Assembly: GCA_000004985.1 (NCBI GenBank)
Contig: GG738892.1
DNA from: Naegleria gruberi
Taxonomy: Eukaryota
Length of the DNA: 64,000 nt
Direction: 5' to 3' (one strand)
Made by a program: the position numbers and the translations under genes. Of this stretch, positions 7,692-61,310 are shown piece by piece. Each line of letters opens with the position of its first letter. Positions within the stretch are counted from its first letter, which is position 1. Below the pieces are notes generated by a model. The model ran no database searches, was not told the origin of the DNA, and saw nothing but the letters and a program-made list of their open reading frames with translations.

Positions 7692-7764
7692 CGCCCACCG
7701 TGGGGGTCGAACCCACGACCACAAGGTTAAGAGCCTTGCGCTCTACCGACTGAGCTAGACGGGC
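7692..7764 (-). tRNA. tRNA-Lys (anticodon CUU)
   Basis: Reverse complement folds as a cloverleaf: acceptor GCCCGTC/GGTGGGC (two G-U pairs), D-arm GCTCAGTCGGTAGAGC, anticodon stem CAAGG/CCTTG with loop CTCTTAA, T-arm GTGGGTTCGACCCCAC, discriminator G; 73 nt, no intron, CCA not encoded. Confidence 0.9.
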
Positions 7765-18300: not shown

Positions 18301-18513
18301 GATGGTGATTGTGAGTTCTTGTCTGCCAATCTCTATGCTAAGAGCAGCTTTGGTGAAGATGCTTTGGCTAACGTTTCTTTAGAAAAGTTACCAGAAGGCA
18401 ATATTGAAGGTGTTGTCAGAATTCGTAGTAAGACTCAAGGAATTGCGTTGTCATTAGGTAATATTATTGCTGATCAAACTAAGATGTTTGACGCAAAGAA
18501 GTTGAAGAAATAA
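15307..18513 (+). CDS. SEC26: coatomer (COPI) subunit beta; join(15307..15641, 15804..18513), 162-nt intron 15642..15803 (GTATGT..AATAG)
   Basis: Exon 1 matches the COPB N-terminus (..LMMQLNGEDFSHLLMTIIQYVLP.. vs human ..[23 protein letters not shown]..). Exon 2 matches from ..RNDLLHPNEYVRGFALRFL.. through KVTQLTGFSDPVYAEA..IVYDTPKG to ..NLYAKSSFGEDALANVS. Phase-2 splice reconstructs ..LLMC-C-SHIRNDLLHPNEY. Confidence 0.9.
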
Positions 18514-23821: not shown

Positions 23822-24359
23822 GTTTTTTTTATTATTTCTTGTCAATTTACCCGGTAATGTGAAATGTCTAGTGAAATAGTTGAGAGCTATTATCCCTTAA
23901 TCTGACATGGACGAAACAAGGATCCTGTCCAATCTTTTACCCTTGCTTCTTGCCATATAAACAACATTCTTGCTTTTAATCAAAAATTGACACAATTTGA
24001 AGGACATACTCTCGTGAGTCTTCATCATGCATTGACATTATTCAAATCTGTGCAATTGAAAGCAGAAGAGATAGGCAAAGTGTTTATCGATAATTGTTTC
24101 AGTAACCAAATGGAATGTGCTTTGTAGCTGAAATTTCAAATTTCCAATCTTTACAGTTTCTAAGTTCTTTTGTAAACTAAATTGGTGAAATGAAATTGGA
24201 CTAGTGAACACTGCACAATTCTTCTATAAGGACGTACCTTTAATTTTAATCTTCGTCCGCGGACTTGCAAAATCCCTATTTTCTATTTCTAATAACTTTC
24301 TCAAAATTTCTTCAAAAACTTCCAAATTTTCCATTTTTCAAAAAAATTCAAAAAAAAAA

Positions 24360-39097: not shown

Positions 39098-40045
39098 TTA
39101 ATTTTCAATAATTAAAACACCAATAACATGACTTCCTCCTTTTTCTTGTTCATTAGAAAATGGTTCAAAAGTAACCTTAACTTGAGACATTACTTGTGAA
39201 TAATCTCCAACACCTTCCAATTGCAAAGTATCATCTCTATTCAATATGTGAATAGAACTCTTATCATCATGATTGGATGATTTTGGAATGTTAACTTTGA
39301 CCAAGGCATCCAAATCATCGGGTACATATAAAAACAAGTGCCACTTCCTTTGATTGTTACTAGTATCTATTTGTTGTTCTTCTTCATCTTGTTCTGTTGT
39401 AGTTGATGAAGTTGTTGTTACTGGTAATAAATCCAATAATTGCAACAAATTAATTTCTTCTGATGAATCAAAGTCATGCACAGAACGACAAACGACCTTC
39501 TCACACTTGGTTCTTTCATCCTTCGTCATGACATTATAGTCAATAATTAAATGTTCCTGGTCTCCTTCATCGATTGTTGAAGGAATTAATTCACACTCTG
39601 TTTTGGCAGAACCAGAAAAGTAATAGGGAACCATCAGTGGAAGATAATCCCTTTGTATTAATTCCTTCCTTGATGAATCTTGTTCTTCATGTTGTTGAAT
39701 AATGTACATTTGTGTTGGATGTGTAGTCTTTTGTTGTGGATGTTGCGATAGATTACATTGAGTATAAATTAAAACACGAGAATAGCCTACAAAGGATGAG
39801 AAGGGGACCTTTTGAGAGTTTGTTGTTGTTTGTTGCTCTTCAAGAGGTTGTTGTTGATGAAATTGTGTTTTCATCTGAGCACTCGATAAACGGAATGTAA
39901 AATCATCATTAACAGATGTACACGTTGATGGAGAAATGATAAATTGTCTGGTAGTTCCTTGACCATTCTTCCATGGCATGGTTTGATAGTCAGAACTTGC
40001 GAGCTTGGAAGAAGATAAAATAGAATAGTGGATTGGGGGAGACAT
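39098..40045 (-). CDS. hypothetical Gln/Thr-rich protein
   Basis: 315-aa ORF with ATG start; low-complexity acidic and Thr-rich segments; no recognisable domain. Confidence 0.35.
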   Translation of the reverse strand: MSPPIHYSILSSSKLASSDYQTMPWKNGQGTTRQFIISPSTCTSVNDDFTFRLSSAQMKTQFHQQQPLEEQQTTTNSQKVPFSSFVGYSRVLIYTQCNLSQHPQQKTTHPTQMYIIQQHEEQDSSRKELIQRDYLPLMVPYYFSGSAKTECELIPSTIDEGDQEHLIIDYNVMTKDERTKCEKVVCRSVHDFDSSEEINLLQLLDLLPVTTTSSTTTEQDEEEQQIDTSNNQRKWHLFLYVPDDLDALVKVNIPKSSNHDDKSSIHILNRDDTLQLEGVGDYSQVMSQVKVTFEPFSNEQEKGGSHVIGVLIIEN

Positions 40046-40728: not shown

Positions 40729-42555
40729 TTAAACAAAAATTTGTTGAAGGGCAGGTAATTTTCTAAGCATATTTCTAACTTGGTTACCATAGGGGTTTGG
40801 CCAGTATGCACAGAGCCATGTTAAATTTTTCAAAGCAAGTATGGATTTTGCTCCTTCATCAGTCATTCCAATGCCATTAATGTGGAGTTTTGTGAGACGA
40901 GTTAGTCGACTAATAGCCTTAACTCCTTCATCTCCAATTTCATAATCGCTGTAAATGCGCAGTTCAGTTAATTGGCTCATCTGACCAATATATTTAGCTC
41001 CTACAGTTCGAATATTATTAGCGCCAATCGAAAGAGCAGTTAAATTGGGTAATTGACTGATAAATCGAGCCCCTTCTGAACAAATATTATTATAGTCAAT
41101 CTTGAGAATTAGTAAATGTTTCATCTCGCTTATCTTTTCGGCACCTGTTGTTCCAATTTCGTTGTTTTCAATATCAAGTTCAGTTAAATGCTTTAACTCT
41201 GTAATTGATTGAATTCCAGTTTTGTTTATGGAATTTCGTGGGACAATTAATGATGTCAAATGTGTCATTTCACAGATTGATTTGAATTCATTTTGAGTAA
41301 AATTTTTCGAAATGTCAAGTTTTTTCAAATGTTTCATTCTTTCAAGTAAATTGGGATCCAAATAATAATTATAGTGTAGGTACAGTGATTTCAATTGATC
41401 TAATTTGGTGATGGAAACCAATCCATTCGTGGTAATTTTGTTATATCCTAAATTAAGGTATGTTAAATTTGTAATTTCACTACTTTCTACCATTACATTC
41501 TCAATTTGATTATATTGCATATCCAGAAAGGTTAATTGTTTCATTTTGATAATATACTCCGCACCAACATCACCAATTCTATTTCCATTAATGCAAAGTG
41601 CAGTTAATTTTTCAAGTCTACTAATATATAAGGCACCTTTAGCATGAATATGATTATTTCCAATGGAAAGGCATGTCAATTGTTTCATTTCAGCAACATT
41701 TTGTGCTCCTTTAGATCCGAGATTATTTCTATTAATATTGAGCGATTTTAAATATTGTAATTTTTCACTAATCGGCTTGCAAGAGGTAATACCACAACCA
41801 CTAACATTGAGATATATCAAATGATTTAAATTTTCTGCAATTTCCTCAATTCCCAAATCTCCAATTCTATTCTTTTTAATATTAAGATGTGTTAAATTTT
41901 TCATTTTACAAATTGATTCTACACTTTCAATTCTATTATTTCTAATATTCAACAATGTTAAACCTTTCAAATCACTCAACAATTCCAACCCTTCATCTTT
42001 TATATGATTATCCCCTAAATTTAATAATTCCAAATTTTTAAATTGAGATAGTATTTTAACTTGTTCATTTCCAATATCACTTGAAGCAATGTCCAATCTT
42101 TTCAAATGTTTCATTTTACAAATTGTATTCTCTACACTTTCGAATAAAGTTTCATTACCATGATCAACATGTCTTGATTGTTTGAAAAATTGCATAAATC
42201 GTAATCCAACAAGTTTTAAATTGAAAATACCCTCCATATGATGATGTTTCCAACTCGAATAAATCCAAACTCTATTAAAATAACCTTTTCTCATGACCAG
42301 GGAAAGTTTCGCCTTCTTGTTTGTAATCACCCGATCCCACTGTTGCGAAATTAATGTACAAACTGTTTTTACAAATTGATAATCAAGATATTGAACAATT
42401 TCTGAACAAATATCATCCGAAAACAATTCATCTAAACTTTGATAATATTAAAATGATTTTTATAAATTTTGCATGTAAATAGAGATATGTAAATATTACT
42501 TACCACTCGATAATCTAAATTTCAATGATTCCGATAATGATACTTGTTCTGGCAT
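40729..42555 (-). CDS. F-box-like / RNI-type leucine-rich-repeat protein; join(42555..42504, 42431..40729), 72-nt intron 42432..42503 (GTAAGT..TTTAG)
   Basis: About 17 tandem ~24-28-aa LRRs of ribonuclease-inhibitor type (L..L.I..N.IG..GA..I..). Short 5' exon (MPEQVSLSESLKFRLSS) splices in phase 1 to ..DELFSDDICSEIVQYLDYQFVKTVCTLISQQWDRVI (F-box-like), the same N-terminal motif as the paralogue at 49310. Confidence 0.75.
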
Positions 42556-44544: not shown

Positions 44545-44616
44545 CTCCCATGCCGGGAATTGAACCCGGACCTCCTGGGTGAAAGCCAGGTATCCTAGCC
44601 ATTGGACTACACGGGA
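44545..44616 (-). tRNA. tRNA-Glu (anticodon UUC)
   Basis: Reverse complement TCCCGTGTAGTCCAATGGCTAGGATACCTGGCTTTCACCCAGGAGGTCCGGGTTCAATTCCCGGCATGGGA(G) folds as cloverleaf: acceptor TCCCGTG/CATGGGA, anticodon stem CCTGG/CCAGG with loop CTTTCAC; 72 nt; T-rich flank downstream on the coding strand. Confidence 0.9.
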
Positions 44617-47683: not shown

Positions 47684-47764
47684 GGTGTGTTGACCGAGTG
47701 GTTATGGTGCTGGCTTCAGGTGCCAGTGGGTAAAACCGCGTGGGTTCAAATCCCACACACATCA
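47684..47764 (+). tRNA. tRNA-Leu (anticodon CAG), type II with long variable arm
   Basis: GGTGTGT-TG-ACC-GAGTGGTTAT-GGT-G-CTGGC-TTCAGGT-GCCAG-[13-nt variable arm]-GTGGG-TTCAAAT-CCCAC-ACACATC-A. Discriminator A73 and U33 indicate Leu rather than Ser identity. An oligo-T tract follows. Confidence 0.85.
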
Positions 47765-49209: not shown

Positions 49210-49309
49210 TCTTTGTCTACAACCATCCATCACTTTGATTTAAATGTCAAAATAGTTTACAACACAAAATTTCAAGTGATGAACTTTGTGTCAAGAACAA
49301 CCTAAAAAA

Positions 49310-50524
49310 ATGCATCAACAAGATAAATACACCACCCCTTCAACGTTGCTAGAGAAATCCAATGCTGTATTTTCGGATGATATTTGTTATGAAATATTGT
49401 CATTTCTTGACCATAATTTCAAATCTTCATCACTTTGGAATTATGCATCAATTTCAAAACAATTTATGAAAATAATTGGAGGACGATTGGAATTGAACAT
49501 GTACTATTCAGAAATGACTTCTCAAAAGATTGAGTTAATGAGGAGAAGTATCCTGTCTCAAAATGTTGTGAGTTTGAGAACTGAAAGAGTTTCGGATTTT
49601 CCAAAATTTTGCACAATTCTTAAAAGCATGAATCAATTGAGGAGAGTTGAAATTTGTGGTCATCACTTGAAAGGAGCAACAATTAAACCATTGACCATGT
49701 TGAAACAAGTTACAGATCTTGTACTAAATGAGAATGGAATTAGTGAACTGGGTGTGATTTACATTTCTGGAATGATTCAATTAAAATCTCTCGATATTAG
49801 GAATAATGAAATTAATGTTGAGAGTGCCAAATATATCACTCAACTGCGTAAACTACAATCTTTGAGTGTTTCAGTTCGTAACAATGAAGTTCTGACATTA
49901 ATAGGTGGAATGAAAAATTTGACTCGATTGAGGATTGATAGAAATAACATAGGACATGATGGAGCCAAAATAATCAGTAGAATGAAGCAATTGACCAGTC
50001 TGCATATTTCCAATAATTCACTGCTATCTGAAGGAGCAAAATTGATAAGTAGTATGAAGAAACTAACCGAATTGGTCATTACCAACAATAATATTGGAAT
50101 AATGGGAACCTTTTATATTAGTGAGCTGAAAGAATTAACCAAACTTTGTATTGGTTTTAATTGTATTGGAGATGAAGGAGCCAAACATATTAGTGGGTTG
50201 AAAAAGTTGGTTGACCTTAATGTCACTTGGAATGAGATTGGCCTTGCTGGTGCCAAGTCAATTGGAGAATTGAGAAATTTAACTCATCTTTCTGCGGGTG
50301 AGAATGATATTCCAGCAGAAGGAGCTAAAGCAATAAGTCAATTAAGGAATTTGACCTATCTTGATATTGTAGGCAATCCAATAGGTGATGAAGGAGGTTT
50401 AGCAATTAGTGAATTGACAAAATTGACTACACTCTTCATTGGCGTCTATTCCTTGAGTAATTGCTCAATTGACCAACTCAAGAAAATGAAGCAGTTAAGA
50501 GTATCAGATCTTCTTGATGATTAG
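49310..50524 (+). CDS. F-box-like / RNI-type leucine-rich-repeat protein (paralogue of 40729..42555)
   Basis: Track ORF starts on TTG at 49286, and the first ATG is at 49310. N-terminus ..SNAVFSDDICYEILSFLDHNF (the same F-box-like motif as the paralogue), then ~11 RNI-type LRRs (..LDIRNNEINVESAKYITQL.., ..LRIDRNNIGHDGAKIISRM..). Confidence 0.75.
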   Translation: MHQQDKYTTPSTLLEKSNAVFSDDICYEILSFLDHNFKSSSLWNYASISKQFMKIIGGRLELNMYYSEMTSQKIELMRRSILSQNVVSLRTERVSDFPKFCTILKSMNQLRRVEICGHHLKGATIKPLTMLKQVTDLVLNENGISELGVIYISGMIQLKSLDIRNNEINVESAKYITQLRKLQSLSVSVRNNEVLTLIGGMKNLTRLRIDRNNIGHDGAKIISRMKQLTSLHISNNSLLSEGAKLISSMKKLTELVITNNNIGIMGTFYISELKELTKLCIGFNCIGDEGAKHISGLKKLVDLNVTWNEIGLAGAKSIGELRNLTHLSAGENDIPAEGAKAISQLRNLTYLDIVGNPIGDEGGLAISELTKLTTLFIGVYSLSNCSIDQLKKMKQLRVSDLLDD

Positions 50525-50582: not shown

Positions 50583-52229
50583 ATGAAAAGACAATATGAT
50601 ATGATTAATACTTGTTCTTCTGATCAAGATGAAGATGATGATTGTACAGAAACTTGTTCTTCCGAAGATGAACAATATGAACTTGCTTTAAAATATTTTA
50701 ATGGGACTAATGTTGAAACAAATTATTCTAAAGCTTTCGACTTGTTTTTGAAGAGTGCGGAACAGGGAAAGACAGAATCACAACATCAAATTGGCTATTT
50801 TTATCATTGTGGATTGGTGGTGGAGAAGGATTTATCTAAAGCAATGGAATGGTATCTGAAAGCTGCCGAAAAGGGATTTTCAGAATCACAATTTTCAATC
50901 GGAATTTTGTTTTATAAAGGAGTTGAAGTGGAGTATTCGAAAGCTATGGAATGGTTTTTGAAAGCAGCTGAAAATGGTCTTTCGAAAGCTCAGTGTAATC
51001 TTGCTGCTTTATATGAAAATGGATGGGGAGTTGAACAAGATTATTCGAAAGCTATGGAATGGTATTTAAAATCTGCTGAACAGGAAAATTCAATAGCTCA
51101 ATGTAATATTGGAAATATATTTGCAAATGGAAAGGGAGTTGACCAAGATTATTCTAAAGCATTCGAATGGTATCTGAAAGCTGCTAAAAATGGTGATTTA
51201 ACTGCTCAATCATTTGTTGCATCATCATTTGCAACTGGAAGAGGGGTCAAAAAAGATTATTCTAAAGCATTCGAATGGTATTCAAAAGCAGCTGAAAATG
51301 ATTATTCTCATTCAGTCTACAGTATTGTAAATGGAAAAGGAACAGACAGTGATGCAAAATTCAATCTAGCTTATTTATACGAAACTGGATCAGGTGTTCA
51401 AAAGAACATCCTGAAAGCATTCGAATGGTATATGAAAGCAGCTCAAGATGGTCATCTAAATGCACAATTTTCCATTGCAGGATTTTATAGAGATGGATTG
51501 GTAGTTCAACAAAATTTTTCAAAGGCAGTAGTATGGTATTTGATAGCTGCTGAAAATGGTCATATGGACGCACAGTTCAATGCTGGTTATGCTTTTGAAA
51601 ATGGTTTAGGAGTTCCACAAGATTATTCGAAAGCTATGGAATTATATTCTAAAGCTGCTGAACAGGGGAGTGCACGTGCTGAATGTAATATTGGAAATAT
51701 GTATTTGTATGGGAGAGGTGTTGAAATAGATTATTCGAAAGCTGAGGAACATTTATTGAAGGCCTCTGAAAGAGGTGATGCATTATCACAAGTTAATGTT
51801 GCATATTATTACATGAATGGAGTATTCGATAGAGATTACACCAAAGCATTCAAATACTTTCTTGAGGCTGCTAAAAATGGTGAGCTAACCGCCCAGAATA
51901 ATGTTGCAAAATTATTCGAATTGGGCCTAGGAACTGAGAAAAATTTGAAACAAGCTCTATTTTGGAATTCAAAAAAATTGAATGATAGTTGCAGTTTTCA
52001 ATTTATTGAGGATCCGTATGACCAATTTGCTTTAAAAACTTTCAGACCAGTAATAGACAGCGAGATGAGTTTAATTACAGATTCGAATGAGATGGTGATT
52101 ATTCGATTTGAAACTAGAGATTTTACAATCTTGAAAAACAAGGTGATCACAAGCAAATACTTGACAACAATGATGAATTCTAATTGGATTGGTTTCAATT
52201 CGAAAGGAGAATGGTCAACTTGTACTTGA
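50583..52229 (+). CDS. Sel1-repeat (SLR) protein, ~12 tandem Sel1 repeats
   Basis: Repeated 36-aa units of the form ..DYSKAMEWYLKAAEQG...AQ.NLG..YENG.GV.QD; the C-terminus leaves the repeats and begins a BTB-like segment that continues in another frame (see 52189..52650). Confidence 0.8.
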   Translation: MKRQYDMINTCSSDQDEDDDCTETCSSEDEQYELALKYFNGTNVETNYSKAFDLFLKSAEQGKTESQHQIGYFYHCGLVVEKDLSKAMEWYLKAAEKGFSESQFSIGILFYKGVEVEYSKAMEWFLKAAENGLSKAQCNLAALYENGWGVEQDYSKAMEWYLKSAEQENSIAQCNIGNIFANGKGVDQDYSKAFEWYLKAAKNGDLTAQSFVASSFATGRGVKKDYSKAFEWYSKAAENDYSHSVYSIVNGKGTDSDAKFNLAYLYETGSGVQKNILKAFEWYMKAAQDGHLNAQFSIAGFYRDGLVVQQNFSKAVVWYLIAAENGHMDAQFNAGYAFENGLGVPQDYSKAMELYSKAAEQGSARAECNIGNMYLYGRGVEIDYSKAEEHLLKASERGDALSQVNVAYYYMNGVFDRDYTKAFKYFLEAAKNGELTAQNNVAKLFELGLGTEKNLKQALFWNSKKLNDSCSFQFIEDPYDQFALKTFRPVIDSEMSLITDSNEMVIIRFETRDFTILKNKVITSKYLTTMMNSNWIGFNSKGEWSTCT

Positions 52230-52650
52230 TTTACAAACTATTGAACATGAAATATTTCAGAGAAATGTCAATCACATTGAAATATTTGAGAAATATGTTG
52301 AATACTTGACAAATGATACGATACCATCTAATTTTGATACTAAAATGGAATTAATTGAATTATCAAGATATTTACAGGACGATTCATGTATTTTTAAAAT
52401 TGTGAAATATTCTGACGTTTTGACAAGATTTTACATTTCATTTTATTTTGACAAAACGGAACAGCTTGACATTCCAATAGTTAGTTGTTATATAATGGAT
52501 ACTACATTCAACACGTGCGATATTTCACCTCATGCAATTGAGAAATTATTGACAGGACCTGATTTATCACCAATTGCCAAGAGGAAGATTTTAGATCTAG
52601 TTCCATTAAATAATTTGGGAACCAATTCGACAATATTCGAAGGTAAGTAA
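52189..52650 (+). CDS. BTB/POZ-like segment, probable C-terminal continuation of the Sel1 gene in a shifted frame
   Basis: ..MVIIRFETRDFTILKNKVITSKYLTTMMNSNW (end of the Sel1 ORF) and ..KENGQLVLDLQTIEHEIFQRNVNHIEIFEKYVEYLTND (this ORF) together resemble one BTB fold. The two frames overlap by ~40 nt with no room for an intron. Confidence 0.35.
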   Translation: MVSIRKENGQLVLDLQTIEHEIFQRNVNHIEIFEKYVEYLTNDTIPSNFDTKMELIELSRYLQDDSCIFKIVKYSDVLTRFYISFYFDKTEQLDIPIVSCYIMDTTFNTCDISPHAIEKLLTGPDLSPIAKRKILDLVPLNNLGTNSTIFEGK

Positions 52651-53049: not shown

Positions 53050-53130
53050 TGATGTGTGTGGGATTTGAACCCACGCGGTTTTACCCACTGGCACCTGAAG
53101 CCAGCACCATAACCACTCGGTCAACACACC
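53050..53130 (-). tRNA. tRNA-Leu (anticodon CAG), second copy in inverted orientation
   Basis: Exact reverse complement of the 47684..47764 gene over all 81 nt; ~45 nt of 5' flank and the oligo-T 3' flank are also similar between copies. Confidence 0.85.
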
Positions 53131-53291: not shown

Positions 53292-56200
53292 TTATTTAAA
53301 AACTGAAACTCTGTTGTTAGTCTCCTCACAAATATACAATTCTCCTGTGTGATGATCGACATCAAAACCAGTTGGTGAAAATAATTGACCGTGCTTACTT
53401 CCCTTCTCACCAAATCTCTTGACAATTCTCAAACAACGAGTCTTTCCATTTCTTGGTCCAAGTCTATCAATTAACAAATCATCATAACTTTCAAATTGTC
53501 CCAATTCATCCTTACTCTCCACAAAATTACAATCCTCATAGACATTGATTCGATGCCAATTATGAACTGACAAGTACAAGTATCCTGTAGATCTTTCAAA
53601 ATAAATATAATTGGTGGCCCATTCAATTTCTGGTGAAACACTTAGACTTCTCATATCATGAATTAATTCTCCTTCCCTTGTAAAGACCTTAATGGAACCA
53701 CTTGTAAAATCATAGGCCATTAAATGACCATCATTATTAAAGTCAACTCCCCAACCAGAATTAATTTCCTTAATGGTTCCAATAGTTCTGAGAATTTTAC
53801 CATCATGACTAATAACAGCAATTCTATTATTACACATGTCAGTAACGTAGACATCACTAGTCTCTGGATCGACAGTGAGACATGTTGGAGTAGAAATTTC
53901 ATCTGGATAATCTCCTGCAGATCCTCTTCCTGCTTGCCAAACTTGAACTTTTCCATCCCATGTATATTTGCTGTTTGTGTTGGCATTTCAATTAATTGTA
54001 ATGTAGCAGTAAATGCAATCAATTGTAAGAAAAATAAATAATACATACTAAACCTTATTAGTTGAAGTTCCTGATACAAGCAAAGTCTTATCATTGTAGT
54101 CAAATGCAATAGATCTACTTCCACCTGGAACTGAAAAGTGATACAAATATTTTTTAGTAGCACAATCAAAAACTTGAATTCTACCATTCAAATAATCTGA
54201 AACAAATGCTTGTCTTGTCATGGCATTAATTTTCACATCGTGTGGCAAGCTAAAAAGGCCAGGATCTCTTTGATGTCTAGAGTAATTTCCATACTTGTCT
54301 CCAAGCTTTCCAACATATTCAATCTTTCCAAATAGGCTGAATGTCTTTCTCTTGAAAACCGGTTGAGCAAGAGCTGAGGATTTGGTTGAGTTTGGAGGGG
54401 GCAATTCTTTAAGACCAGTATGGAATTTGGTCTTGTTTGACTTGTTGTGGAGAGTCAAGTGAAGTTCACAGAAATAGGCATCACAATCAGAGCAGTGATG
54501 AGTGGCATTGGTTTTTTCCTCTGCTTCATCAAAACATTTGGTACAATGAGGTACAGAACTTTCCTTCTTCAATTCTACCAAATCATCAACATGGAATTTG
54601 GTCTTGTTTGCCTTATTGTGTAGTGTCAAGTGTTCTTCACAAAAGTGGAGAGCACATGTCTTACAAAAGTGAGTAGCTTGCGTTTGTTCTTCATCATCGA
54701 GACACTTGTCACAGAATCGTTCGCCACTTGAGGAATCATTTGTTTCGGCAAGTGGAATCTTGGTTTCAACTGTTTCAATCAAATTTCCTCTCAAATATAA
54801 ATTAGTAGTGATTAATACATCTTTTCCATCGCCAGCTTGTTCCAACTCAATTGGAATGGATTTTTCATACTTTCCATTTTCTGGAATTAATTGAACTTGT
54901 TCTTCAAATGTTTTTGTGACAAATCTTGTGTCAAATGTAATGACATAGTGTACAGGGTTCGGAGTATACTTTCCATATGGAATTCCAGAAGCATTATTCA
55001 AGGTAATTTTCAATGTTGCTGCCTTTCCTGGTCTGAGAGCAGTTGGATCTTGAGAGATGGATTCAATACTGACAGGATATTGAACCTTAAAAGTTTTTGG
55101 AAGGGTTGAATTGTTAAATGTCTTTCCAAGAAGAGTTGCTTGTGAAATGATGGTAATTTCAGATTCCAAGCCACTACTACCATTCTCTCCTACAGTACCA
55201 TGAAAATCGTGTGGAACGACAATTTCCTCTTGAGGAGCAAGACTTGTATTCAATGTAAAACTTTCCTGACCAGCATTTGGAAGGAATTTGAATTTAGAGC
55301 TAGCCAAACTGGTAAAGCTAATCACTACTCCACTTGGGCATGTCAATTTTCCTTCATTCTTAATTTTGAGACCTGTAATCATGACAGCTTCACCTGGTTC
55401 AATAATTCCATCATTGGTGTTTACATCAGTTGTTTTCAATTCAAAATCTGAAACAACCAAATCATACATTTCACTTGCTTGCTCTAAAACCTGTCCAGTT
55501 TTAGAATCTACAATTACAAACTTCTTAACTCCTGATTGACCAGATTTTGATCCAGGTTCGCCAGCCTTGCCTTCCTGACCAGACTTACCACGATCTCCCT
55601 TTTGGCCATCCTTTCCTTTTTCTCCTGCCTTCTTTCCAGCACCATTTAGTGAGCTAGGATCTCCTCCTGAACCAGCATGTCCACGAGAACCTCCCAAACC
55701 AGCTGATCCAGCTCTACCTTGTTCACCTCCCATACCAGACATTCCTCCTCTACATTCAACTTGTAAAAAGATGAGATATTCTGGGTGGGATGTAGTTACA
55801 ATGACTTGATTGGTTGCATCTCCTCCATTAGCTCCATTTCCACCACTTTAGTTATTATTATTAAATTAGAAATTATTAGAAATAATTTAACAAATAATGG
55901 AAGATGAAAAAACTTACTCTCCACCATTACCTGAATGTCCACCATTTCCTCCTCTGCCACCATTTCCACCATTACCACCACTTCCTCCACTTTCACCTTT
56001 TCCTCCCTTTCCACCATTGCCACCTGATTCATTCAGAGAAGTGAAAAGTAGGGTCAGTACAACTCAATGAAATAGGATAATTAGAAACTTACCACTACCA
56101 CCTTCGCCTCCTGCTCCTCCGTCACCACCTCTACCACCATTTCCTCCATCACCTCCATTAGCTCTGAAAATCAACACGGATTCAGAAGCATCTTTAATAT

Positions 56201-56719
56201 CCAACAAGACACTTTCATTTGCAATATTTGATGACATGTTAAACTTTAACAAATTATCACTCTGGGATTCGATTGTAATTTGCACACTGGTGTGAGGACA
56301 CGATTTACCATCACTAGCATGACTGCCATTCAATCCATCAGTACCATTTCCTCCATTTCCTTTTGTGATTTCACAGAATTCCATAAGATGATGAATTTAA
56401 TGTCAACATATATATATTGAAATCATGTGCAATGATAACAAACCTCCAGAATCACCATCATCTCCTCTACCACCTCCACTCTTTCCCAAATGACCCGATC
56501 TTCCACTCTAAATTTGTTTCAACAACATATTAATATTTACATTTGATCATCAATCATATGATCAACAATACATTAAAATTTCCTTAAATACTATTGTGTG
56601 ATAGAATTACAAACCTCTCCTTTTGATCCTTTTTGTCCAGCTTGACCATCTGAACCATCCGAACCAACCTCACCACTCCAATCAATTATTTTAATCGAAT
56701 CAGTACATGAAGTGGCCAT
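53292..56719 (-). CDS. collagen-like / B-box zinc-finger / NHL-repeat protein, six exons: join(56719..56615, 56507..56444, 56359..56093, 56023..55918, 55845..54049, 53970..53292); introns 107, 84, 69, 72 and 78 nt
   Basis: Exons 1-4 and the start of exon 5 encode Gly-rich (GGX)n and G-X-Y runs (GSDGSDGQAGQKGSKGE / SGRSGHLGKSGGGRGDDGDSG / ..NGGDGGNGGRGGDGGAGGEGGSG / GNGGKGGKGESGGSGGNGGNGGRGG.. / ..AGEKGKDGQKGDRGKSGQEGKAGEPGSKSGQSG) interleaved with short beta-like segments. Exon 5 continues with a ~330-aa spacer and two B-box-type zinc fingers (CDKCLDDEEQTQATHFCKTCALHFCEEHLTLHNK.., CTKCFDEAEEKTNATHHCSDCDAYFCELHLTLHNK..). The exon 5-6 splice (tta|GTATGT..AACAG|c) continues the NHL propeller (..YKYTWDGKVQVWQ..NNRIAVISHDGKIL..NNRVSVFK). 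All donors are GTAAGT, GTATGT or GTTTGT, acceptors are YAG, and phases are consistent. Exon 3, 5 and 6 boundaries were checked against ORF-track codon positions; exons 1, 2 and 4 may be off by 1 nt. Confidence 0.7.
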
Positions 56720-57010
56720 TTTGTTTTTTGCTAAATTCGACTTGTAAAACATTATTCAATATTTATGCTCAATCAAACATGAAAGAACTTGCTAGGAAAT
56801 TGCAAATAACCGAATTGGAACACTAATAGTAAGGAGCGCCAATCAAGGTAAAAAATTCGTTGTGGGGGCGATTAAACATAATATTGTTGTCTAAGGCTAA
56901 AATGCGCGTTTTTGATTGTTATCGTGAGAAAATTTTGTACCAACATCGGATCAAGCCTTTTTAATTTTTTCAAAACTTGAAAAAAACAAATCAAAGACTA
57001 AGAGAGCAAA
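56720..57010. promoter_or_regulatory. divergent (bidirectional) promoter region between two B-box/NHL paralogues
   Basis: 291-bp AT-rich interval between the ATG of the minus-strand gene (56719) and the ATG of the plus-strand gene (57011); no ORF. Confidence 0.3.
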
Positions 57011-58480
57011 ATGCCACCAAAATTCTGCGCCAAATGTCTCGATGAAGAGGAAGAAGTTGCAGCAACTCATCACTGTCCAACATGTGATCTGTTAATGTGT
57101 GAGGTCCATTTGATGTTACACAATAAGGTGGCCAAGACTAAAGGACATGCTGCCGATGTGGTGGAAGTTAAAGAGGAAGAGGAAGAAAAGAAACAAATAA
57201 TGTGTCAAATGTGTATGGAAGATGATGAGGAAACAGCTGCCTTGTACTTTTGTCCTATTTGCAAGTTGAATATCTGTGAACTTCATTTGAATTTGCATAA
57301 CAAGATGAGCAAGACAAAGGGTCACGAAAAGGAGATCAAGATATTGGGAGAGGACGGATTGAGTACTTGTGCTCATTGTCAAGCTCATTGTCCTGATGAT
57401 TTTGTTGATGCTGTCTTTGCCTGTAGAGAATGTAAAACTAATTTGTGTTATCATCATGCTAAAATTCACACTCTTGCTTGTAATCATGCCAAAAATCCAA
57501 AACCTCAAGGTGAAGGATGTTCCCAACTCGATACCAACTCGTTCCGTCTATTGGCCGATAACAAGTTTAAACAATTTGCAGGAGATTTTGAATTTGTTGG
57601 ATTTTTGGGATCAAGTAATGAAGCTCAGGATGAATTTTTCTTGAAAGGAAGTGAAGGAAAGCAACCTCAACAATTCAAAAAACCAAATGGATTGAAAATT
57701 AACATTTATACAAAGGAAATATTTGTTTGTGACTCTCAAAATTGTAGAATTCAAGTTTTTGATTTGACCACAAGAGCATTCAAACGTGAAATGAAGTTTT
57801 TCAGCTTTTCACCACTTCATCTTGATTTTGATCTTTCAGATGACACTATGATCATTAGTGGTGATAATCAAACAGTTGCCAAGTACACAATGGATGGTAG
57901 AACTTTAATTTGGGAATATGGTAAACCAAACAATTATACTGCAACCGATGAGACATTTGGTAATTGTCGTGGTATTGTTGTAGATAATGAAGGGGATGGA
58001 AATGTTTACATTGCCGAGTGGAATAACGATAGAGTGAAGGTATTGACAAGAGATGGCAAGTTTGTCAAACACTTTATTGAAAAGCAATTATGGACTGCTC
58101 CTCAAGGATTGGCTATTAGAAATGGAAATTTACTAGTCAATTCTCGTTGTTATGGTCAAGGACAAGTTGCTGAATTGAGTCTTCCTGATGGAGAATTTAT
58201 TAAGAGTTATGGTAAAAAGCAAGACCTGGATCCTGAACTCCAAGATTCATGCTACATGTGTGTTGAACGATTTTCAGGAAATATTGTCATTGCGGATACT
58301 GACGATTCGTGGACCTCTCCAATTAAATTCATCAAGGGTCAAAGTTTACTCAAACTTGAAAAACCAAGAGGGCAAGGAAAGTTACATTTCAGTGCCCCAA
58401 CTGGCATTGACATTGATCCTTACACTGGTTTATTGTATGTATGCGATCGTGAAAATAATCGTGTTCAAATATTGAAATAA
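57011..58480 (+). CDS. B-box zinc-finger (x3) + NHL-repeat beta-propeller protein
   Basis: N-terminus has three B-box-like modules (CAKCLDEEEEVAATHHCPTCDLLMCEVHLMLHNK.., CQMCMEDDEETAALYFCPICKLNICELHLNLHNK.., CAHCQAHCPDDFVDAVFACRECKTNLCYHHAKIH). C-terminal ~270 aa carry NHL blades (..QNCRIQVFD.., ..NVYIAEWNNDRVKVL.., ..LYVCDRENNRVQILK). Single exon. Confidence 0.75.
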   Translation: MPPKFCAKCLDEEEEVAATHHCPTCDLLMCEVHLMLHNKVAKTKGHAADVVEVKEEEEEKKQIMCQMCMEDDEETAALYFCPICKLNICELHLNLHNKMSKTKGHEKEIKILGEDGLSTCAHCQAHCPDDFVDAVFACRECKTNLCYHHAKIHTLACNHAKNPKPQGEGCSQLDTNSFRLLADNKFKQFAGDFEFVGFLGSSNEAQDEFFLKGSEGKQPQQFKKPNGLKINIYTKEIFVCDSQNCRIQVFDLTTRAFKREMKFFSFSPLHLDFDLSDDTMIISGDNQTVAKYTMDGRTLIWEYGKPNNYTATDETFGNCRGIVVDNEGDGNVYIAEWNNDRVKVLTRDGKFVKHFIEKQLWTAPQGLAIRNGNLLVNSRCYGQGQVAELSLPDGEFIKSYGKKQDLDPELQDSCYMCVERFSGNIVIADTDDSWTSPIKFIKGQSLLKLEKPRGQGKLHFSAPTGIDIDPYTGLLYVCDRENNRVQILK

Positions 58481-58578
58481 ATTTGGTAGCTCTGTAAATT
58501 GTATATTATTAATCCAATTACAAAATCTTATTAAAATAATAATTTGTCAAGTTATTAAATACAAAATGAATTGGCAAT

Positions 58579-59817
58579 TTATTTATAAATAACAACCTTA
58601 TCTTCATCACAATTGACATACAAATAGCCATTAGTTGGGTCAATATCCATACCATATGGTCTGAATGGTCTTTCTCCTAATTGAGTTGAGCAACCAGTTG
58701 CTGTAGCCATTAATACTTTGCCATCTTTTTCAGTTAACTCGTAGAGAGTCAATTTCTTAGAGGACGGTTCAGACATGATCAAGTTGCCAGTACACTTTTC
58801 TACTATACAATAAATTGGAGGATTACAGAATGCATTCAGGGTGGAATTCTCATATCCAAAAACCTTATTAACAAATACTCCATCCTTTGTAAATAATTGA
58901 ACTCCTCTCTTGTGATATGTCTTGTTGCAATAGACAAGTAAATTCTTATTGTCGGCTGTCAACCCAATACAGTAAGGATCGTAAATTTCAGCAATGTCGC
59001 TTCCAATCTCTCCCTTCATTGTTCTTAAATATTGACCTGCACTGGAGAAGACTTGAATTCTTGAATTGAAACAATCAGCAACAAATACAGAACCATCCAA
59101 AGGATCGACCACACAAGTAGTATGATCAGAGAATCTGTCATTACTTTCACCTCTTGATTGATCAAATTTCCACACAACTTCACCACTCTCAACTTTAATT
59201 TTGTAAATATTACAACCACAACACAAGATCATTGCTTCATCATTATCACACAAGCACATCCAACGAGCAGTGGAAGGAGCCTTGATCGTTCTCTTTGGCT
59301 CTCTAGTCTTGCTATCAAAAACAGCAATCATACTATATTCATAAGACATGTAAATCTCTTGATTCTTGGCACTCACTTTAACATCAAATGATTTTCTAGT
59401 GCCAAGAGTTTGTTTTTCAATTTCCAAAGTACCAACAAGTGTGAAATTTCCACTAAATGGAACATCACCTCCCTTTCCAATCACTCTAATTTCTGGAGTG
59501 TGTGATTTACTCAGAGTTGAAATCTTGTGCAACTCGACATGATTTTTACATAAATTTAATTTACATTCATGACAATGATGACTAGCCTTCAAACATGTAT
59601 CCAACAATTTCTTCTCCTTCATTTCCAAACACTCATCACACATGTAAACAGGTTTTGAATTAATATCAATCACTTGATCCGCATGCCCGGAAGTCTTCTT
59701 TGCAGCATTATGAAGCTCCAAATGACTCTCACAAAAATAGAGAGCACATTGTGGGCAGTGATGAGAGGCTGGTGTTGTCTCCTCCACTTGTTTACACTTA
59801 TCGCAACATTGAACCAT
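58579..59817 (-). CDS. B-box zinc-finger + NHL-repeat beta-propeller protein (third paralogue)
   Basis: CDKCKQVEETTPASHHCPQCALYFCESHLELHN.., CDECLEMKEKKLLDTCLKASHHCHECKLNLCKNHVELHK.., then NHL blades (..FNSRIQVFS.., ..YLYVNCDEDKVVIYK). ATG start and single exon; convergent with the 57011 gene. Confidence 0.75.
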   Translation of the reverse strand: MVQCCDKCKQVEETTPASHHCPQCALYFCESHLELHNAAKKTSGHADQVIDINSKPVYMCDECLEMKEKKLLDTCLKASHHCHECKLNLCKNHVELHKISTLSKSHTPEIRVIGKGGDVPFSGNFTLVGTLEIEKQTLGTRKSFDVKVSAKNQEIYMSYEYSMIAVFDSKTREPKRTIKAPSTARWMCLCDNDEAMILCCGCNIYKIKVESGEVVWKFDQSRGESNDRFSDHTTCVVDPLDGSVFVADCFNSRIQVFSSAGQYLRTMKGEIGSDIAEIYDPYCIGLTADNKNLLVYCNKTYHKRGVQLFTKDGVFVNKVFGYENSTLNAFCNPPIYCIVEKCTGNLIMSEPSSKKLTLYELTEKDGKVLMATATGCSTQLGERPFRPYGMDIDPTNGYLYVNCDEDKVVIYK

Positions 59818-60143: not shown

Positions 60144-61310
60144 ATGCCTCAACTCGATAACAATGAAGAGAAAGCCTTGATGATCAAACAGGAGAAAAGA
60201 CGGGAAATGTCTCTCCGATTTGGAAAGTCCATGATTAAGAAAACATTTCAACCAATGAAAAAAGTTTCTGCTATGGAGAGGAGGAAAAAATTGGGAATTG
60301 ATTGTGAGGAGGAAGAAATGAATTTAAATAGTGGCAAGAATGTAAGACCTTTATCGGAGGAGAAGAAGAAAAAGAGGTCTGTTGTGGATATGTCTCTATT
60401 CGAAAGTAGTGATGATGATATTTGTGATGATGAAGTTGAGGAGAAGGTGAACAATAGGATGAGAAAAAATAAGCCTTCCGACTTTATTGAAGAACAAGAT
60501 TCATCAAGCAAAGAGGAAGAAGAAATTATTCAAAAAAAGAAGAAACGAAAGGTTTCGTCCACAACTAAAAATATAATAACTAGCGAAAGAAATGTAAAAA
60601 TACCAAAAACAGCCAAATACTATACAAGCCTTGGAGTAGAAACATGTGAGTCTTCCAATTTGGATTTGGAATTTATTGAAATTTCATCCAATTCAAACTC
60701 TAAAAAAAAGATTTTAGAAATTAAGGAGCTAGTGGATAGCTCATTAAATTACGACGAATCAGAAGAAGACTTTACCAAAAAGCCATATAAGTTATTCATT
60801 TGTTTGGAAAAAGATTCTCGAGTGGTAGTTGGATGTCTGATTGCAGAAAAGATTTCATCTGCAAGAAGAATTCATTTCAAGAGGAAGGAAAATGAAAGCT
60901 CTTCCTCCAATAATAGTAACAGCAGTGACAATGGTTGTGATGATATTTTATCAGCACTCTTTGAATCATTTAAGCACTCACTCTCTCAGAGTATTGGAAC
61001 AGAAGAATTACACTCACCCAAGATTATTGATCATCCCAGCCTAGACATGGCTGATATAAATTTTGATAATAGCACCAATGAGAAGGAAAAGGCTGTGTGT
61101 GGTATTTCTAGGATTTGGGTCTCTGACGACTACAGAAGAAGAGGAATTGGAACAAAACTATTGGACTATACGAGAAAGCACCTCTGCTATGCCTATCAAG
61201 TACCAAGACAATATATTGCCCTTACTCCTTTCACACCACTGGGTTTTAAATTTATTATTGAATATCTTTCGAAAGGAAAAACAAGAGTGGATTCAGTTTT
61301 GGTTTATTGA
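60144..61310 (+). CDS. ECO1: Eco1/ESCO-family N-acetyltransferase (establishment of sister-chromatid cohesion)
   Basis: C-terminal acetyltransferase core CGISRIWVSDDYRRRGIGTKLLDYTRKHLCYAYQVPRQYIALTPFTPLGFKFI matches the ESCO signature (CGISRIWV...RR.GIA..L...........IAFS.PTP.G..FA). Basic/acidic low-complexity N-terminal half as in Eco1 orthologues. Confidence 0.75.
   Translation: MPQLDNNEEKALMIKQEKRREMSLRFGKSMIKKTFQPMKKVSAMERRKKLGIDCEEEEMNLNSGKNVRPLSEEKKKKRSVVDMSLFESSDDDICDDEVEEKVNNRMRKNKPSDFIEEQDSSSKEEEEIIQKKKKRKVSSTTKNIITSERNVKIPKTAKYYTSLGVETCESSNLDLEFIEISSNSNSKKKILEIKELVDSSLNYDESEEDFTKKPYKLFICLEKDSRVVVGCLIAEKISSARRIHFKRKENESSSSNNSNSSDNGCDDILSALFESFKHSLSQSIGTEELHSPKIIDHPSLDMADINFDNSTNEKEKAVCGISRIWVSDDYRRRGIGTKLLDYTRKHLCYAYQVPRQYIALTPFTPLGFKFIIEYLSKGKTRVDSVLVY

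What the first reader, a model, noticed from the sequence alone, without database searches (positions are those of the whole stretch)
53292..59817. Tight cluster of three paralogous B-box zinc-finger + NHL beta-propeller genes in a fungal-type genome
Three adjacent genes share the architecture of multiple B-box-like Cys/His zinc fingers followed by an NHL six-blade propeller. They are arranged minus/plus/minus, divergent then convergent.

B-box + NHL is the hallmark of metazoan TRIM-NHL RNA regulators (Brat, Mei-P26, TRIM71). B-box domains are very rare in fungi. Here there is no RING finger, and one copy is fused to a collagen-like region. This looks like a lineage-specific tandemly expanded family with no described fungal function.
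Basis: partly seen in the sequence, partly recalled or inferred. Interest (0 to 1): 0.75.

Follow-up and report, generated by a model that had tools for sequence, protein, structure and literature searches.

The report
Naegleria RING-less B-box–NHL gene cluster
Three neighbouring genes of the amoeba Naegleria gruberi (not a fungus) each encode tandem B-box zinc fingers joined to a six-bladed NHL propeller, a stripped-down cousin of the animal TRIM-NHL regulators that is already in the public genome annotation but has never been studied.

Summary
Three adjacent paralogous genes lie minus/plus/minus at 53292-59817, and each has 2-3 Cys/His fingers followed by a propeller.

- **Fingers:** They are B-box type 1 by ligand spacing, by profile match to TRIM28 B-box1 and by predicted fold. 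They fall below Pfam's B-box thresholds.
- **Propeller:** It is a six-bladed NHL domain. The 19 best structural matches are all animal TRIM-NHL domains.
- **What is missing:** There is no RING, no coiled coil and no filamin domain.
- **Gene 1:** It runs to 56719 in six exons. It adds a proline-poor Gly-X-Y/GGX region and a DUF7932 domain.

The "fungal" interpretation is wrong. The window is Naegleria gruberi, and the genes are NAEGRDRAFT_81014, _51768 and _71727, all annotated as predicted or hypothetical proteins. At least five more paralogues exist in N. gruberi, and relatives occur in N. lovaniensis, N. fowleri and Willaertia magna. The Willaertia protein keeps B-box1, B-box2, a coiled coil and NHL.

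The most likely function is a non-catalytic, self-associating adaptor whose propeller binds a protein or RNA ligand. That function is inferred, not shown.

This is a new variant of a known kind and of moderate interest, because TRIM-NHL-type architecture has been described as animal-specific.

The parts
53292..56719 (-). G1 = NAEGRDRAFT_81014 (UniProt D2VRW2). Six exons: 56719-56615, 56507-56444, 56359-56093, 56023-55918, 55845-54049 and 53970-53292 (stop included). 1005 aa in my model, 1018 aa in the reference model.
   Evidence: All five introns are GT..AG, 69-107 nt, and in frame. The product is identical to XP_002673278.1 except for the acceptor of intron 3. The splicing is inferred; no RNA data were available.
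55527..56674 (-). G1 N-terminal Gly-rich region (aa 16-287). It holds six runs of Gly-X-Y or GGX triplets (11, 7, 17, 4, 10 and 9 triplets), interrupted by two short beta-like segments. It spans introns 1-4.
   Evidence: Regex and composition: 30.7% Gly and only 4 Pro in the first 300 aa. Pfam Collagen scores 16.9 bits against a threshold of 27.2. There are weak matches to the Scl collagen-like regions.
55077..55454 (-). G1 DUF7932 domain (aa 312-437). It is followed by a second beta-rich region at 54738-55076.
   Evidence: Pfam PF25560 scores 58.2 bits against a threshold of 27. UniProt names D2VRW2 'DUF7932 domain-containing protein'.
54591..54713 (-). G1 B-box1-type finger a (aa 559-599)
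   Evidence: Regex, alignment A1 and the AF2/Foldseek B-box fold
54420..54545 (-). G1 B-box1-type finger b (aa 615-656)
53295..54320 (-). G1 NHL propeller (aa ~690-1005; intron 5 lies inside it at 53971-54048)
   Evidence: Pfam NHL scores 39.5 bits against a threshold of 20. It is homologous to the G2 propeller.
56720..57010 (.). 291-bp intergenic spacer between the divergent G1 and G2 genes. It may act as a shared promoter region.
   Evidence: Coordinates. Any regulatory role is inference only. The spacer shows 6 differences in 291 nt against the 98%-identical Logan contig.
57011..58480 (+). G2 = NAEGRDRAFT_51768 (D2VRW3), 489 aa, single exon
   Evidence: ORF. Identical to XP_002673203.1.
57026..57148 (+). 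G2 B-box1-type finger a (aa 6-46)
   Evidence: pLDDT is 81-91 in the full-length model.
57203..57325 (+). G2 B-box1-type finger b (aa 65-105)
57368..57487 (+). G2 third, divergent Cys/His finger (aa 120-159). Its status as a B-box is uncertain.
   Evidence: It matches the ligand regex. It is only 23% identical to finger a of G1 and has pLDDT 25-39.
57638..58477 (+). G2 six-bladed NHL propeller (aa 210-489)
   Evidence: Pfam NHL scores 56.2 bits. PDB sequence hits include Thin at 5.8e-18 and TRIM2, TRIM3 and TRIM71. The AF2 model has pLDDT of about 90 and 23 strands. Foldseek matches TRIM71 at E 6.5e-19 with TM 0.85.
58481..58578 (.). 98-bp spacer between the convergent 3' ends of G2 and G3
58579..59817 (-). 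G3 = NAEGRDRAFT_71727 (D2VRW4), 412 aa, single exon
   Evidence: ORF. Identical to XP_002673279.1. There is a stop 20 codons upstream in frame.
59683..59805 (-). G3 B-box1-type finger a (aa 5-45)
59500..59640 (-). G3 B-box1-type finger b, with a longer first loop of 17 residues (aa 60-106)
58582..59445 (-). G3 NHL-type propeller (aa ~125-412), more divergent than the other two
   Evidence: Pfam NHL scores only 15.6 bits against 20. It aligns end to end with the G1 and G2 propellers at E 1e-31 to 1e-38. It also matches the NCBIfam ScyF NHL family at E 8.6e-13.

Best explanation
**What it is.** This is a tandem cluster of three old paralogues of a Heterolobosea-restricted gene family in Naegleria gruberi. 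The genes are NAEGRDRAFT_81014, _51768 and _71727.

**Architecture (shown).**
- Each product has two or three B-box type-1 zinc fingers, each with eight ligands in a C5H3 pattern, enough for two zinc ions.
- A short, non-helical linker joins the fingers directly to a six-bladed NHL beta-propeller.
- There is no RING, no coiled coil, no filamin domain, no signal peptide and no membrane segment.

**How it most likely works (inferred).**
- The proteins are probably cytosolic, non-catalytic adaptors.
- The B-boxes would mediate self-association or association between paralogues. Solved B-box1 and tandem B-box domains (TRIM28, PML, CONSTANS) do this.
- The top face of the NHL propeller would bind the ligand, either a protein or an RNA.
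- The deep divergence of the paralogues (26-28% identity) would reflect diversified ligand specificity.
- G1 adds a proline-poor Gly-X-Y/GGX region and DUF7932 beta-domains at its N-terminus. These would plausibly multimerise or space several propellers.
For: **Host and identity.** Coatomer beta is 83% identical to N. fowleri. The three products are identical or near-identical to N. gruberi proteins on one 342-kb scaffold.

**Paralogy.** E-values run from 1e-32 to 1e-41.

**B-box.**
- Seven ligand columns (C, C, C, C, C, H, H) are invariant across all seven fingers; an eighth position is His in six of them.
- The best PDB profile hit is TRIM28 B-box1 across the whole finger, E 0.0016.
- The AF2 model of the tandem fingers has pLDDT 74.7.
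- Foldseek matches the CONSTANS/COL2 tandem B-boxes at E 2e-4, TRIM28 B-box1 at TM 0.81-0.83 and 32-33% identity, and PML B1.
- An exhaustive HMMER search with the finger profile returned 106 proteins. Of 103 scanned, 84 carry Pfam ANCHR-like_BBOX and 69 carry zf-B_box.

**NHL.**
- Pfam scores are 56.2 and 39.5 bits against a threshold of 20.
- PDB sequence hits include Thin, TRIM2, TRIM3 and TRIM71.
- In the AF2 model most propeller blocks have pLDDT above 90.
- The top 19 Foldseek hits are all TRIM-NHL domains, TM 0.74-0.85 except one filamin-NHL chain (0.61).

**Absent features.** No RING, coiled coil or membrane segment was found by Pfam, by regex or in the model. There is no room for upstream exons.

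**Constraint.** G2 coding sequence shows 1 synonymous difference in 391 nt. Adjacent non-coding DNA shows 13 in 386 nt, measured against a 98%-identical assembly.

**Family.** Members were found in N. gruberi, N. lovaniensis, N. fowleri and W. magna.
Against: **Function is untested.** No expression, localisation or binding data were found for these loci or for any family member.

**The B-box call has weak points.**
- Pfam's own B-box models do not reach threshold on the window proteins.
- The finger model has only moderate confidence, from a three-sequence alignment.

**Oligomerisation is an analogy.** The proposed role of the B-boxes is taken from other proteins, not shown here.

**The ligand type is open.**
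- Propeller pI is 5.6-6.1, which gives no indication of a basic RNA-binding face.
- Whole-domain charge cannot exclude such a face either.

**The G1 N-terminal exons are predicted only.** The reference model differs from mine at one splice acceptor.
Confidence: 0.6

Rival explanations
1. The proteins are sequence-specific RNA-binding post-transcriptional repressors, working like Brat, LIN-41/TRIM71 or Mei-P26. The NHL top surface would read RNA motifs and the B-boxes would recruit effectors.
For: The closest solved structures to the G2 propeller are RNA-binding NHL domains: TRIM71 bound to lncRNA (E 6.5e-19, TM 0.85), LIN-41 with RNA, Mei-P26 and Brat with RNA. The closest sequence hits in the PDB are also TRIM-NHL domains. 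Brat likewise lacks a RING (established knowledge).
Against: - Identity to those domains is only 17-25%.
- All three propellers are net acidic, pI 5.6-6.1. RNA-binding NHL domains use a basic top face (established knowledge; PMC4015489 and PMC5908797 appeared but were not read in detail).
- Not all animal NHL domains bind RNA.
- No residue-level check was possible, because model coordinates are not exposed.
Confidence: 0.2
2. The proteins are unconventional ubiquitin or SUMO ligases or E4 factors, in which the RING-like B-box1 substitutes for a RING and the NHL domain acts as the substrate receptor.
For: The B-box1 fold is a RING-like cross-brace. Foldseek also lists RING domains (Bre1, IDOL, RING1B) behind the B-box hits. 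B-box-dependent ligase activity has been reported for MID1 B-box1 and TRIM16 (recalled knowledge, not checked here).
Against: - No RING, U-box or HECT domain is detected.
- The RING-domain matches are weak, E 0.5-2.
- No E2-binding surface could be assessed.
- Reported B-box ligase activities are weak and debated.
Confidence: 0.1
3. The propeller is an enzyme of the six-blade clan, such as a PAL-like lyase or an SGL/arylesterase-type lactonase, and the fingers are accessory.
For: There are near-threshold cross-hits for G2: SGL at 25.8 bits against 26.3, and Arylesterase at 24.5 against 21.3 but with no single domain passing. The PAL structure 3fvz appears at E 7.4e-06 by sequence and 3.9e-12 by fold.
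Against: - These hits are far weaker than the TRIM-NHL matches.
- They are the usual cross-talk within the six-blade propeller clan.
- G1 and G3 do not reproduce them above noise.
- Catalytic metal ligands were not examined.
Confidence: 0.05
4. The cluster is foreign DNA, either recently transferred from an animal, bacterium or giant virus, or contamination, rather than native Naegleria genes.
For: - Marin (2012) describes TRIM-NHL-type architecture as animal-specific (PMC3503706).
- The best general database hits to the G2 propeller are unnamed metagenomic or bacterial NHL proteins.
- The closest non-heterolobosean fingers are mollusc multi-B-box proteins.
- GC is slightly higher here, 0.36-0.38 against about 0.33.
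Against: - G1 has five short GT..AG introns like the host's.
- The genes sit between ordinary Naegleria genes.
- Paralogues lie on at least four other N. gruberi scaffolds, and relatives exist in N. lovaniensis, N. fowleri and Willaertia.
- All outside hits are at most 27% identical.
- Viral structures match only as generic propellers, 10-18% identity.
- Ancient transfer into the heterolobosean stem cannot be excluded.
Confidence: 0.05

Closest known systems
Animal TRIM-NHL proteins (TRIM71/LIN-41, TRIM2, TRIM3, TRIM32/Thin, Mei-P26; Marin's subfamily C)
   Same: They have B-box zinc finger(s) N-terminal to a six-bladed NHL propeller. The G2 propeller's 19 best structural matches are all from this group, with TM up to 0.85. 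The fingers match TRIM28 B-box1 in sequence and fold.
   Different: The window proteins have no RING, coiled coil or filamin domain. They carry two or three B-box1-type fingers rather than a B-box1 plus B-box2 pair. Identity is only 17-25%. The host is a heterolobosean amoeba, whereas this subfamily is listed as animal-only (PMC3503706).
Drosophila Brat / C. elegans NCL-1 (RING-less TRIM-NHL proteins)
   Same: [quoted passage not shown]
   Different: Brat has B-box1, B-box2 and a long coiled coil that dimerises it (established knowledge). The window proteins have a short unstructured linker instead. Brat's RNA-binding face has not been shown to be conserved here.
Willaertia magna ABK040_005426 and the environmental TRIM71-like proteins (P0216 cluster)
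   Same: The Willaertia protein is a heterolobosean relative retrieved by the same finger profile. It is RING-less and has an NHL C-terminus.
   Different: - The Willaertia and P0216 proteins keep the fuller B-box1, B-box2 and coiled-coil module. It matches KAP1 RBCC at E 1e-11 for Willaertia and about 1e-15 for P0216.
- P0216 also has a filamin domain, and its NHL region scores 262 bits against LIN-41.
- The window genes look like a simplified derivative.
- The organism behind P0216 is unknown.
Other N. gruberi paralogues (NAEGRDRAFT_65049, _47029, _68017, _78767, _53360), N. lovaniensis C9374_000220 and N. fowleri FDP41_005321
   Same: They share the architecture of one to three B-box1 fingers followed by a propeller, and the LHN-x3-KTK-x-H finger signature. 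They are mutually significant in BLASTP.
   Different: Most have propellers too diverged for Pfam NHL to detect. None carries the Gly-rich plus DUF7932 extension of G1. In the reference model, _47029 is fused to a 2OG-Fe(II) oxygenase domain.
Plant BBX / CONSTANS tandem B-box domains
   Same: They are the best whole-model fold match to the tandem fingers, E about 2e-4. Both have two consecutive B-boxes with no RING.
   Different: Plant BBX proteins carry a CCT domain and act in transcription. They have no NHL domain, identity is only 18-20%, and the relative orientation of the two fingers is not reproduced (rmsd about 11 A).

Membership tests
TRIM / RBCC family (TRIM-NHL, class VII / subfamily C) | N-terminal RING finger | tested here: not met
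   Pfam finds no RING in G1-G3, and the RING regex finds none. There is no room upstream: the spacer to G1 is 291 bp, and an in-frame stop lies 20 codons upstream of G3.
TRIM / RBCC family (TRIM-NHL, class VII / subfamily C) | One or two B-box zinc fingers | tested here: met
   B-box1 spacing and ligands. TRIM28 B-box1 profile hit at E 0.0016. Fold matches to B-box structures. Relatives of the fingers are Pfam B-box proteins.
TRIM / RBCC family (TRIM-NHL, class VII / subfamily C) | Coiled coil following the B-boxes | tested here: not met
   The linker from the last finger to the propeller is short. In the G2 AF2 model no helix is predicted in residues 115-208, but pLDDT there is below 50.
TRIM / RBCC family (TRIM-NHL, class VII / subfamily C) | C-terminal six-bladed NHL propeller | tested here: met
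Pfam zf-B_box (PF00643) / ANCHR-like_BBOX (PF22586) | Score at or above the gathering threshold | tested here: not met
   PF00643 gives no hit at E <= 1. PF22586 scores 21.7 bits (G2) and 12.4 bits (G1) against a threshold of 27. Membership of the B-box fold class rests instead.
B-box type 1 | Eight zinc ligands with spacing C-x2-C-x7-12-C-x2-C-x4-C-x2-[CH]-x3-4-H-x4-9-H | tested here: met
   Six of the seven fingers fit. G3 finger b has a first loop of 17 residues, and the last ligand of G2 finger 3 is shifted. The consensus itself is recalled knowledge. Zinc binding was not tested.
Pfam NHL repeat (PF01436) | Score at or above the gathering threshold of 20 bits | tested here: met
   G2 scores 56.2 and G1 scores 39.5. 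G3 alone scores 15.6, which is not met. G3 is assigned through full-length homology to G1 and G2 and the ScyF NHL hit at 8.6e-13.
Collagen triple-helix repeat (PF01391) | Gathering threshold, and long uninterrupted Gly-X-Y runs with Pro in the X or Y position | tested here: not met
   The score is 16.9 bits against 27.2. Runs are 4-17 triplets, many of them GGX, with only 4 Pro in 300 aa. Triple-helix formation cannot be tested with these tools.
DUF7932 (PF25560) | Score at or above the gathering threshold of 27 bits | tested here: met
   G1 aa 312-437 scores 58.2 bits. UniProt gives D2VRW2 the same name.
   Coatomer beta is closest to Naegleria (83%), then Willaertia (56%) and Acrasis (53%). 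Plants and a fungus lie at 42-44%. The products are exact matches to N. gruberi proteins.

The most novel reading that the evidence does not exclude
The heterolobosean B-box-NHL proteins could be vertical relatives of the animal TRIM-NHL proteins. The Willaertia member keeps B-box1, B-box2, a coiled coil and NHL, and the Naegleria family would be a simplified derivative.

In that case the B-box/coiled-coil/NHL module arose before animals. It would date to near the eukaryotic root, or it was exchanged between distant eukaryotes. The RING would then be a later addition or a repeated loss.

Within that frame, G1 would be a previously undescribed multimeric, collagen-stalked intracellular receptor, combining a Gly-X-Y/GGX stalk, DUF7932, a tandem B-box and NHL. 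The diversified N. gruberi paralogues could act as an innate recognition or restriction system in a bacterivorous, virus-exposed amoeba.
Probability: 0.15. Interest if true: 0.65.

Novelty: new variant of a known kind. Interest (0 to 1): 0.35.

Why it matters
TRIM-NHL proteins are central regulators of animal cell fate. The evolutionary survey read here lists their subfamily as animal-only (PMC3503706).

A family with RING-less B-box1 fingers and an NHL propeller in Naegleria changes that picture. So does a fuller form in Willaertia with B-box1, B-box2, a coiled coil and NHL. Either the architecture is older than animals, or it was assembled or transferred independently.

The family also offers a minimal, intron-poor and genetically simple version of the module. 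It could be used to ask what B-boxes and NHL propellers do without a ligase domain.

For genome annotation, two of the three genes are labelled only "predicted protein" and could be renamed as B-box/NHL proteins.

The practical importance is modest. The genes have been public since the N. gruberi genome release, and nothing here points to a new biochemical mechanism.

Tried and rejected
1. **Fungal origin: rejected**.
2. **Exact look-up of G2 in the contig index.** It found nothing, and the first homologue search returned only propeller hits at 27% identity or less. The N. gruberi entries were hidden inside clusters whose representatives are fragments, and were recovered only through cluster look-ups.
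4. **Metagenome scan for related loci with the finger alignment.** It gave 158 pattern matches, none confirmed.
5. **NHL phylogeny.** The aim was to compare heterolobosean, animal and bacterial sequences. Extracting domains with a three-sequence profile gave only 16 usable and inconsistent envelopes. At about 25% identity and without a maximum-likelihood program, I abandoned it as unreliable.
6. **AlphaFold database search.** It was meant to find UniProt neighbours, but the library was unavailable.
7. **Giant-virus origin.** BFVD gives only generic propeller matches.
8. **G1 middle region (DUF7932).** Nothing informative came from the PDB or NCBIfam.
9. **Literature.** Searches covered Naegleria with B-box or NHL, DUF7932, and the locus tags and UniProt ids. 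Nothing relevant was found.
10. **Pseudogene idea: rejected.** The open reading frames are intact and G2 shows coding constraint.

Full report
**Observation**

The ORF map shows three genes between 53292 and 59817 in the stated minus/plus/minus order.
- G2 (57011-58480, plus strand, 489 aa) and G3 (58579-59817, minus strand, 412 aa) are single open reading frames.
- G1 is split. I joined six exons with five GT..AG introns of 69-107 nt: 56719-56615, 56507-56444, 56359-56093, 56023-55918, 55845-54049 and 53970-53292. This gives a 1005-aa product.
- G1 and G2 diverge across 291 bp. G2 and G3 converge across 98 bp.

The three products are clear paralogues. BLASTP gives 1.6e-41, 2.9e-36 and 4.4e-32. 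Identity is 26-28% over fingers plus propeller and 40-51% within the fingers.

A ligand-pattern scan of all six frames of the 64-kb window finds six fingers, and the alignment adds a seventh with a longer first loop. All seven lie in these three genes, split 2+3+2. With at least eight family members known in the whole genome (below), three in 6.5 kb points to tandem duplication rather than chance (my inference).

**Host**

The window is about 34% GC, gene-dense and intron-poor.
- Its coatomer-beta gene (15775-18513) is 83% identical to Naegleria fowleri, 56% to Willaertia magna and 53% to Acrasis kona. Plants and fungi lie at 42-44%.
- Cluster look-ups then showed that G2 and G3 are identical to N. 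gruberi XP_002673203.1 (NAEGRDRAFT_51768, D2VRW3) and XP_002673279.1 (NAEGRDRAFT_71727, D2VRW4).
- G1 equals XP_002673278.1 (NAEGRDRAFT_81014, D2VRW2, 1018 aa) except for one splice acceptor. All three lie on one 342,059-bp scaffold.

The "fungal-type genome" reading is therefore wrong. The genes are public but annotated only as "predicted protein" or "DUF7932 domain-containing protein".

**The fingers**

Seven ligand columns are invariant across all seven fingers. The spacing is C-x2-C-x11-17-C-x2-C-x4-C-x2-H-x3-H-x8-H, which is the B-box type-1 pattern (the consensus is recalled knowledge).

Pfam does not make the call. zf-B_box gives no hit, and ANCHR-like_BBOX scores 21.7 bits against a gathering score of 27. 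Three independent lines do support it:
- A profile of the seven fingers finds TRIM28/KAP1 B-box1 (6o5k) as its best PDB match, aligned over the whole finger at E 0.0016.
- An AlphaFold model of the G1 tandem fingers has mean pLDDT 74.7 from only three sequences. It matches the tandem B-boxes of CONSTANS and COL2 at E about 2e-4. It also matches TRIM28 B-box1 (TM 0.81-0.83, 32-33% identity) and PML B1.
- An exhaustive HMMER search of 1.84 billion representatives with the tandem-finger profile returns only 106 proteins. Of 103 scanned, 84 carry ANCHR-like_BBOX and 69 carry zf-B_box.

The third finger of G2 is divergent and modelled at pLDDT 25-39, so its status is uncertain.

**The propeller**

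- Pfam NHL passes in G2 (56.2 bits) and in full-length G1 (39.5 bits) against a threshold of 20. G3 scores 15.6.
- G3 aligns end to end with G1 and G2. It also hits an NHL-type NCBIfam model at 8.6e-13.
- G2's best PDB sequence hits are the Thin, TRIM2, TRIM3 and TRIM71 NHL domains, down to 5.8e-18.
- A full-length G2 model built on 41 sequences puts most blocks of residues 210-489 above pLDDT 90, with 23 strands, close to the 24 expected for six four-stranded blades.
- Its 19 best Foldseek matches are all animal TRIM-NHL domains: TRIM71 at 6.5e-19 and TM 0.85, then Thin, TRIM2, LIN-41, TRIM3, Mei-P26 and Brat.

**What is absent**

- No RING appears in Pfam or by regex.
- There is no upstream coding space.
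- No helix is predicted between the fingers and the propeller, although that region is low-confidence.
- There is no filamin domain, hydrophobic segment or signal-like N-terminus.

**G1 extension**

- Residues 16-287 contain six runs of Gly-X-Y or GGX triplets (11, 7, 17, 4, 10 and 9 triplets). Glycine is 30.7%, and there are only four prolines in the first 300 residues.
- Pfam Collagen is below threshold, 16.9 bits against 27.2. Only weak Scl-like matches appear.
- A DUF7932 domain follows at 58.2 bits, and then a second beta-rich stretch.
- "Collagen-like" is fair as a description of the periodicity. It is not a demonstrated triple helix.

**Family**

- *N. gruberi:* named relatives of the fingers include five more proteins, NAEGRDRAFT_65049, _47029, _68017, _78767 and _53360. 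UniProt already labels one of them "B box-type domain-containing protein".
- *Other Heterolobosea:* there is one protein each in N. lovaniensis, N. fowleri and Willaertia magna.
- *Relationships:* all are mutually significant. The window genes are about as close to the N. lovaniensis protein as to each other, so the duplications are old.
- *Outside the group:* the nearest fingers belong to mollusc proteins made of many tandem B-boxes.
- *Fuller architectures:* the Willaertia protein keeps B-box1, B-box2 and a coiled coil. Its N-terminus matches KAP1 RBCC at E 1e-11, and its NHL region matches Thin at 1.4e-35. It has no RING. An environmental cluster of unknown origin is even more TRIM71-like, with a filamin domain and 262 bits against LIN-41.

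**Constraint**

A 98%-identical Logan contig (ERR1078381) differs from the window by one synonymous change in 391 nt of G2 coding sequence. It differs at 13 positions in 386 nt of adjacent intron and spacer. G1 exon 1 shows four amino-acid changes but keeps its frame and its Gly periodicity.

**Mechanism**

The domain identities and their order are shown. The function is inferred.
- The proteins most likely act as cytosolic, non-catalytic adaptors.
- B-box1 modules would drive self-assembly or assembly between paralogues, as solved B-box1 and tandem B-box domains do.
- The NHL top face would bind a protein or RNA ligand, and paralogue divergence would reflect different targets.
- The G1 Gly-rich region and DUF7932 would add multimerisation or spacing.

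Three rival functions remain open:
- A Brat-like RNA-binding role remains a live alternative. The acidic propellers (pI 5.6-6.1) give it no support.
- B-box-based ligase activity is less likely.
- Propeller catalysis is also less likely.

Recent foreign origin is disfavoured by host-type introns, by native neighbouring genes and by paralogues across the genus. Viral structures match only weakly.

**Comparison and novelty**

The proteins work most like RING-less TRIM-NHL proteins such as Brat. They fail TRIM membership on the RING and the coiled coil.

Marin (2012) lists the NHL-bearing TRIM subfamily as animal-only, with only the TRIM37-like subfamily present in excavates. I found no paper on B-box or NHL proteins in Naegleria or other Heterolobosea, or on these loci.

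This is a new variant of a known kind. It is already present in the public annotation but undescribed, and it is of moderate evolutionary interest.

Noticed in passing
window 55918-56093 (G1 intron 3): The reference model XP_002673278.1 uses a 30-nt intron, which inserts 13 hydrophobic residues (VVLTLLFTSLNES) into the GGX repeat. A 69-nt GT..AG intron with the same donor keeps the repeat continuous and matches the size of the other four introns. The public model may be mis-spliced.
   Followed up: partly
window 47684-47764 (+) and 53050-53130 (-): Two tRNA-Leu(CAG) genes are 100% identical over 81 nt and lie in opposite orientation. The second lies about 160 bp downstream of the G1 stop codon. 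The window also holds tRNA-Lys(CTT) at 7692-7764 and tRNA-Glu(TTC) at 44545-44616.
   Followed up: partly
window 50583-52650 (+): A protein with 12 Sel1 repeats (348 bits) is followed by an overlapping ORF in another frame (52189-52650) that has no Pfam match. This probably reflects an unrecognised intron or a frameshift joining a C-terminal domain.
   Followed up: no
window 60144-61310 (+): An ESCO1/2 (Eco1)-type cohesin acetyltransferase gene lies divergent from G3 across 326 bp.
   Followed up: no
window 32684-38956 (-): A single 2090-aa ORF has ankyrin repeats and a C-terminal protein kinase domain. Most of its N-terminal 1500 residues have no Pfam match.
   Followed up: no
window 39098-40045 (-), 40729-42426 (-), 49286-50524 (+): A HutD-like protein and two RNI-type leucine-rich-repeat proteins. 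Several further long ORFs have no Pfam hit at all, for example 9142-11229, 13261-15141 and 21662-23845.
   Followed up: no
P0230 (Willaertia magna ABK040_005426) and the P0216 cluster (JGI metagenomes): These RING-less proteins have B-box1, B-box2, a coiled coil and NHL, and the P0216 cluster also has a filamin domain. The P0216 cluster scores 262 bits against zebrafish LIN-41 filamin-NHL, but it comes from short environmental contigs of unknown organism.
   Followed up: partly
P0181, P0197 and others (Mya arenaria, Dreissena polymorpha, Mytilus): Bivalve proteins built almost entirely of 6-13 tandem B-box1 fingers are the closest non-heterolobosean sequence relatives of the Naegleria fingers.
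   Followed up: no
BFVD hits A0A1V0SKR9 and A0A1V0SKV3 (Klosneuvirus) and A0A3G5AIV5 (Sylvanvirus): Giant-virus proteins annotated as collagen triple-helix repeat proteins, and a TRAF6-like protein, match the G2 model structurally. A collagen-like region combined with a propeller recalls G1, but identity is only 11-16%.
   Followed up: no
P0286 (NAEGRDRAFT_47029, 603 aa): In the reference model this paralogue is fused to a C-terminal 2OG-Fe(II) oxygenase domain (41.8 bits). A 392-aa ENA version ends after the propeller, so the fusion may be a gene-model artefact.
   Followed up: no
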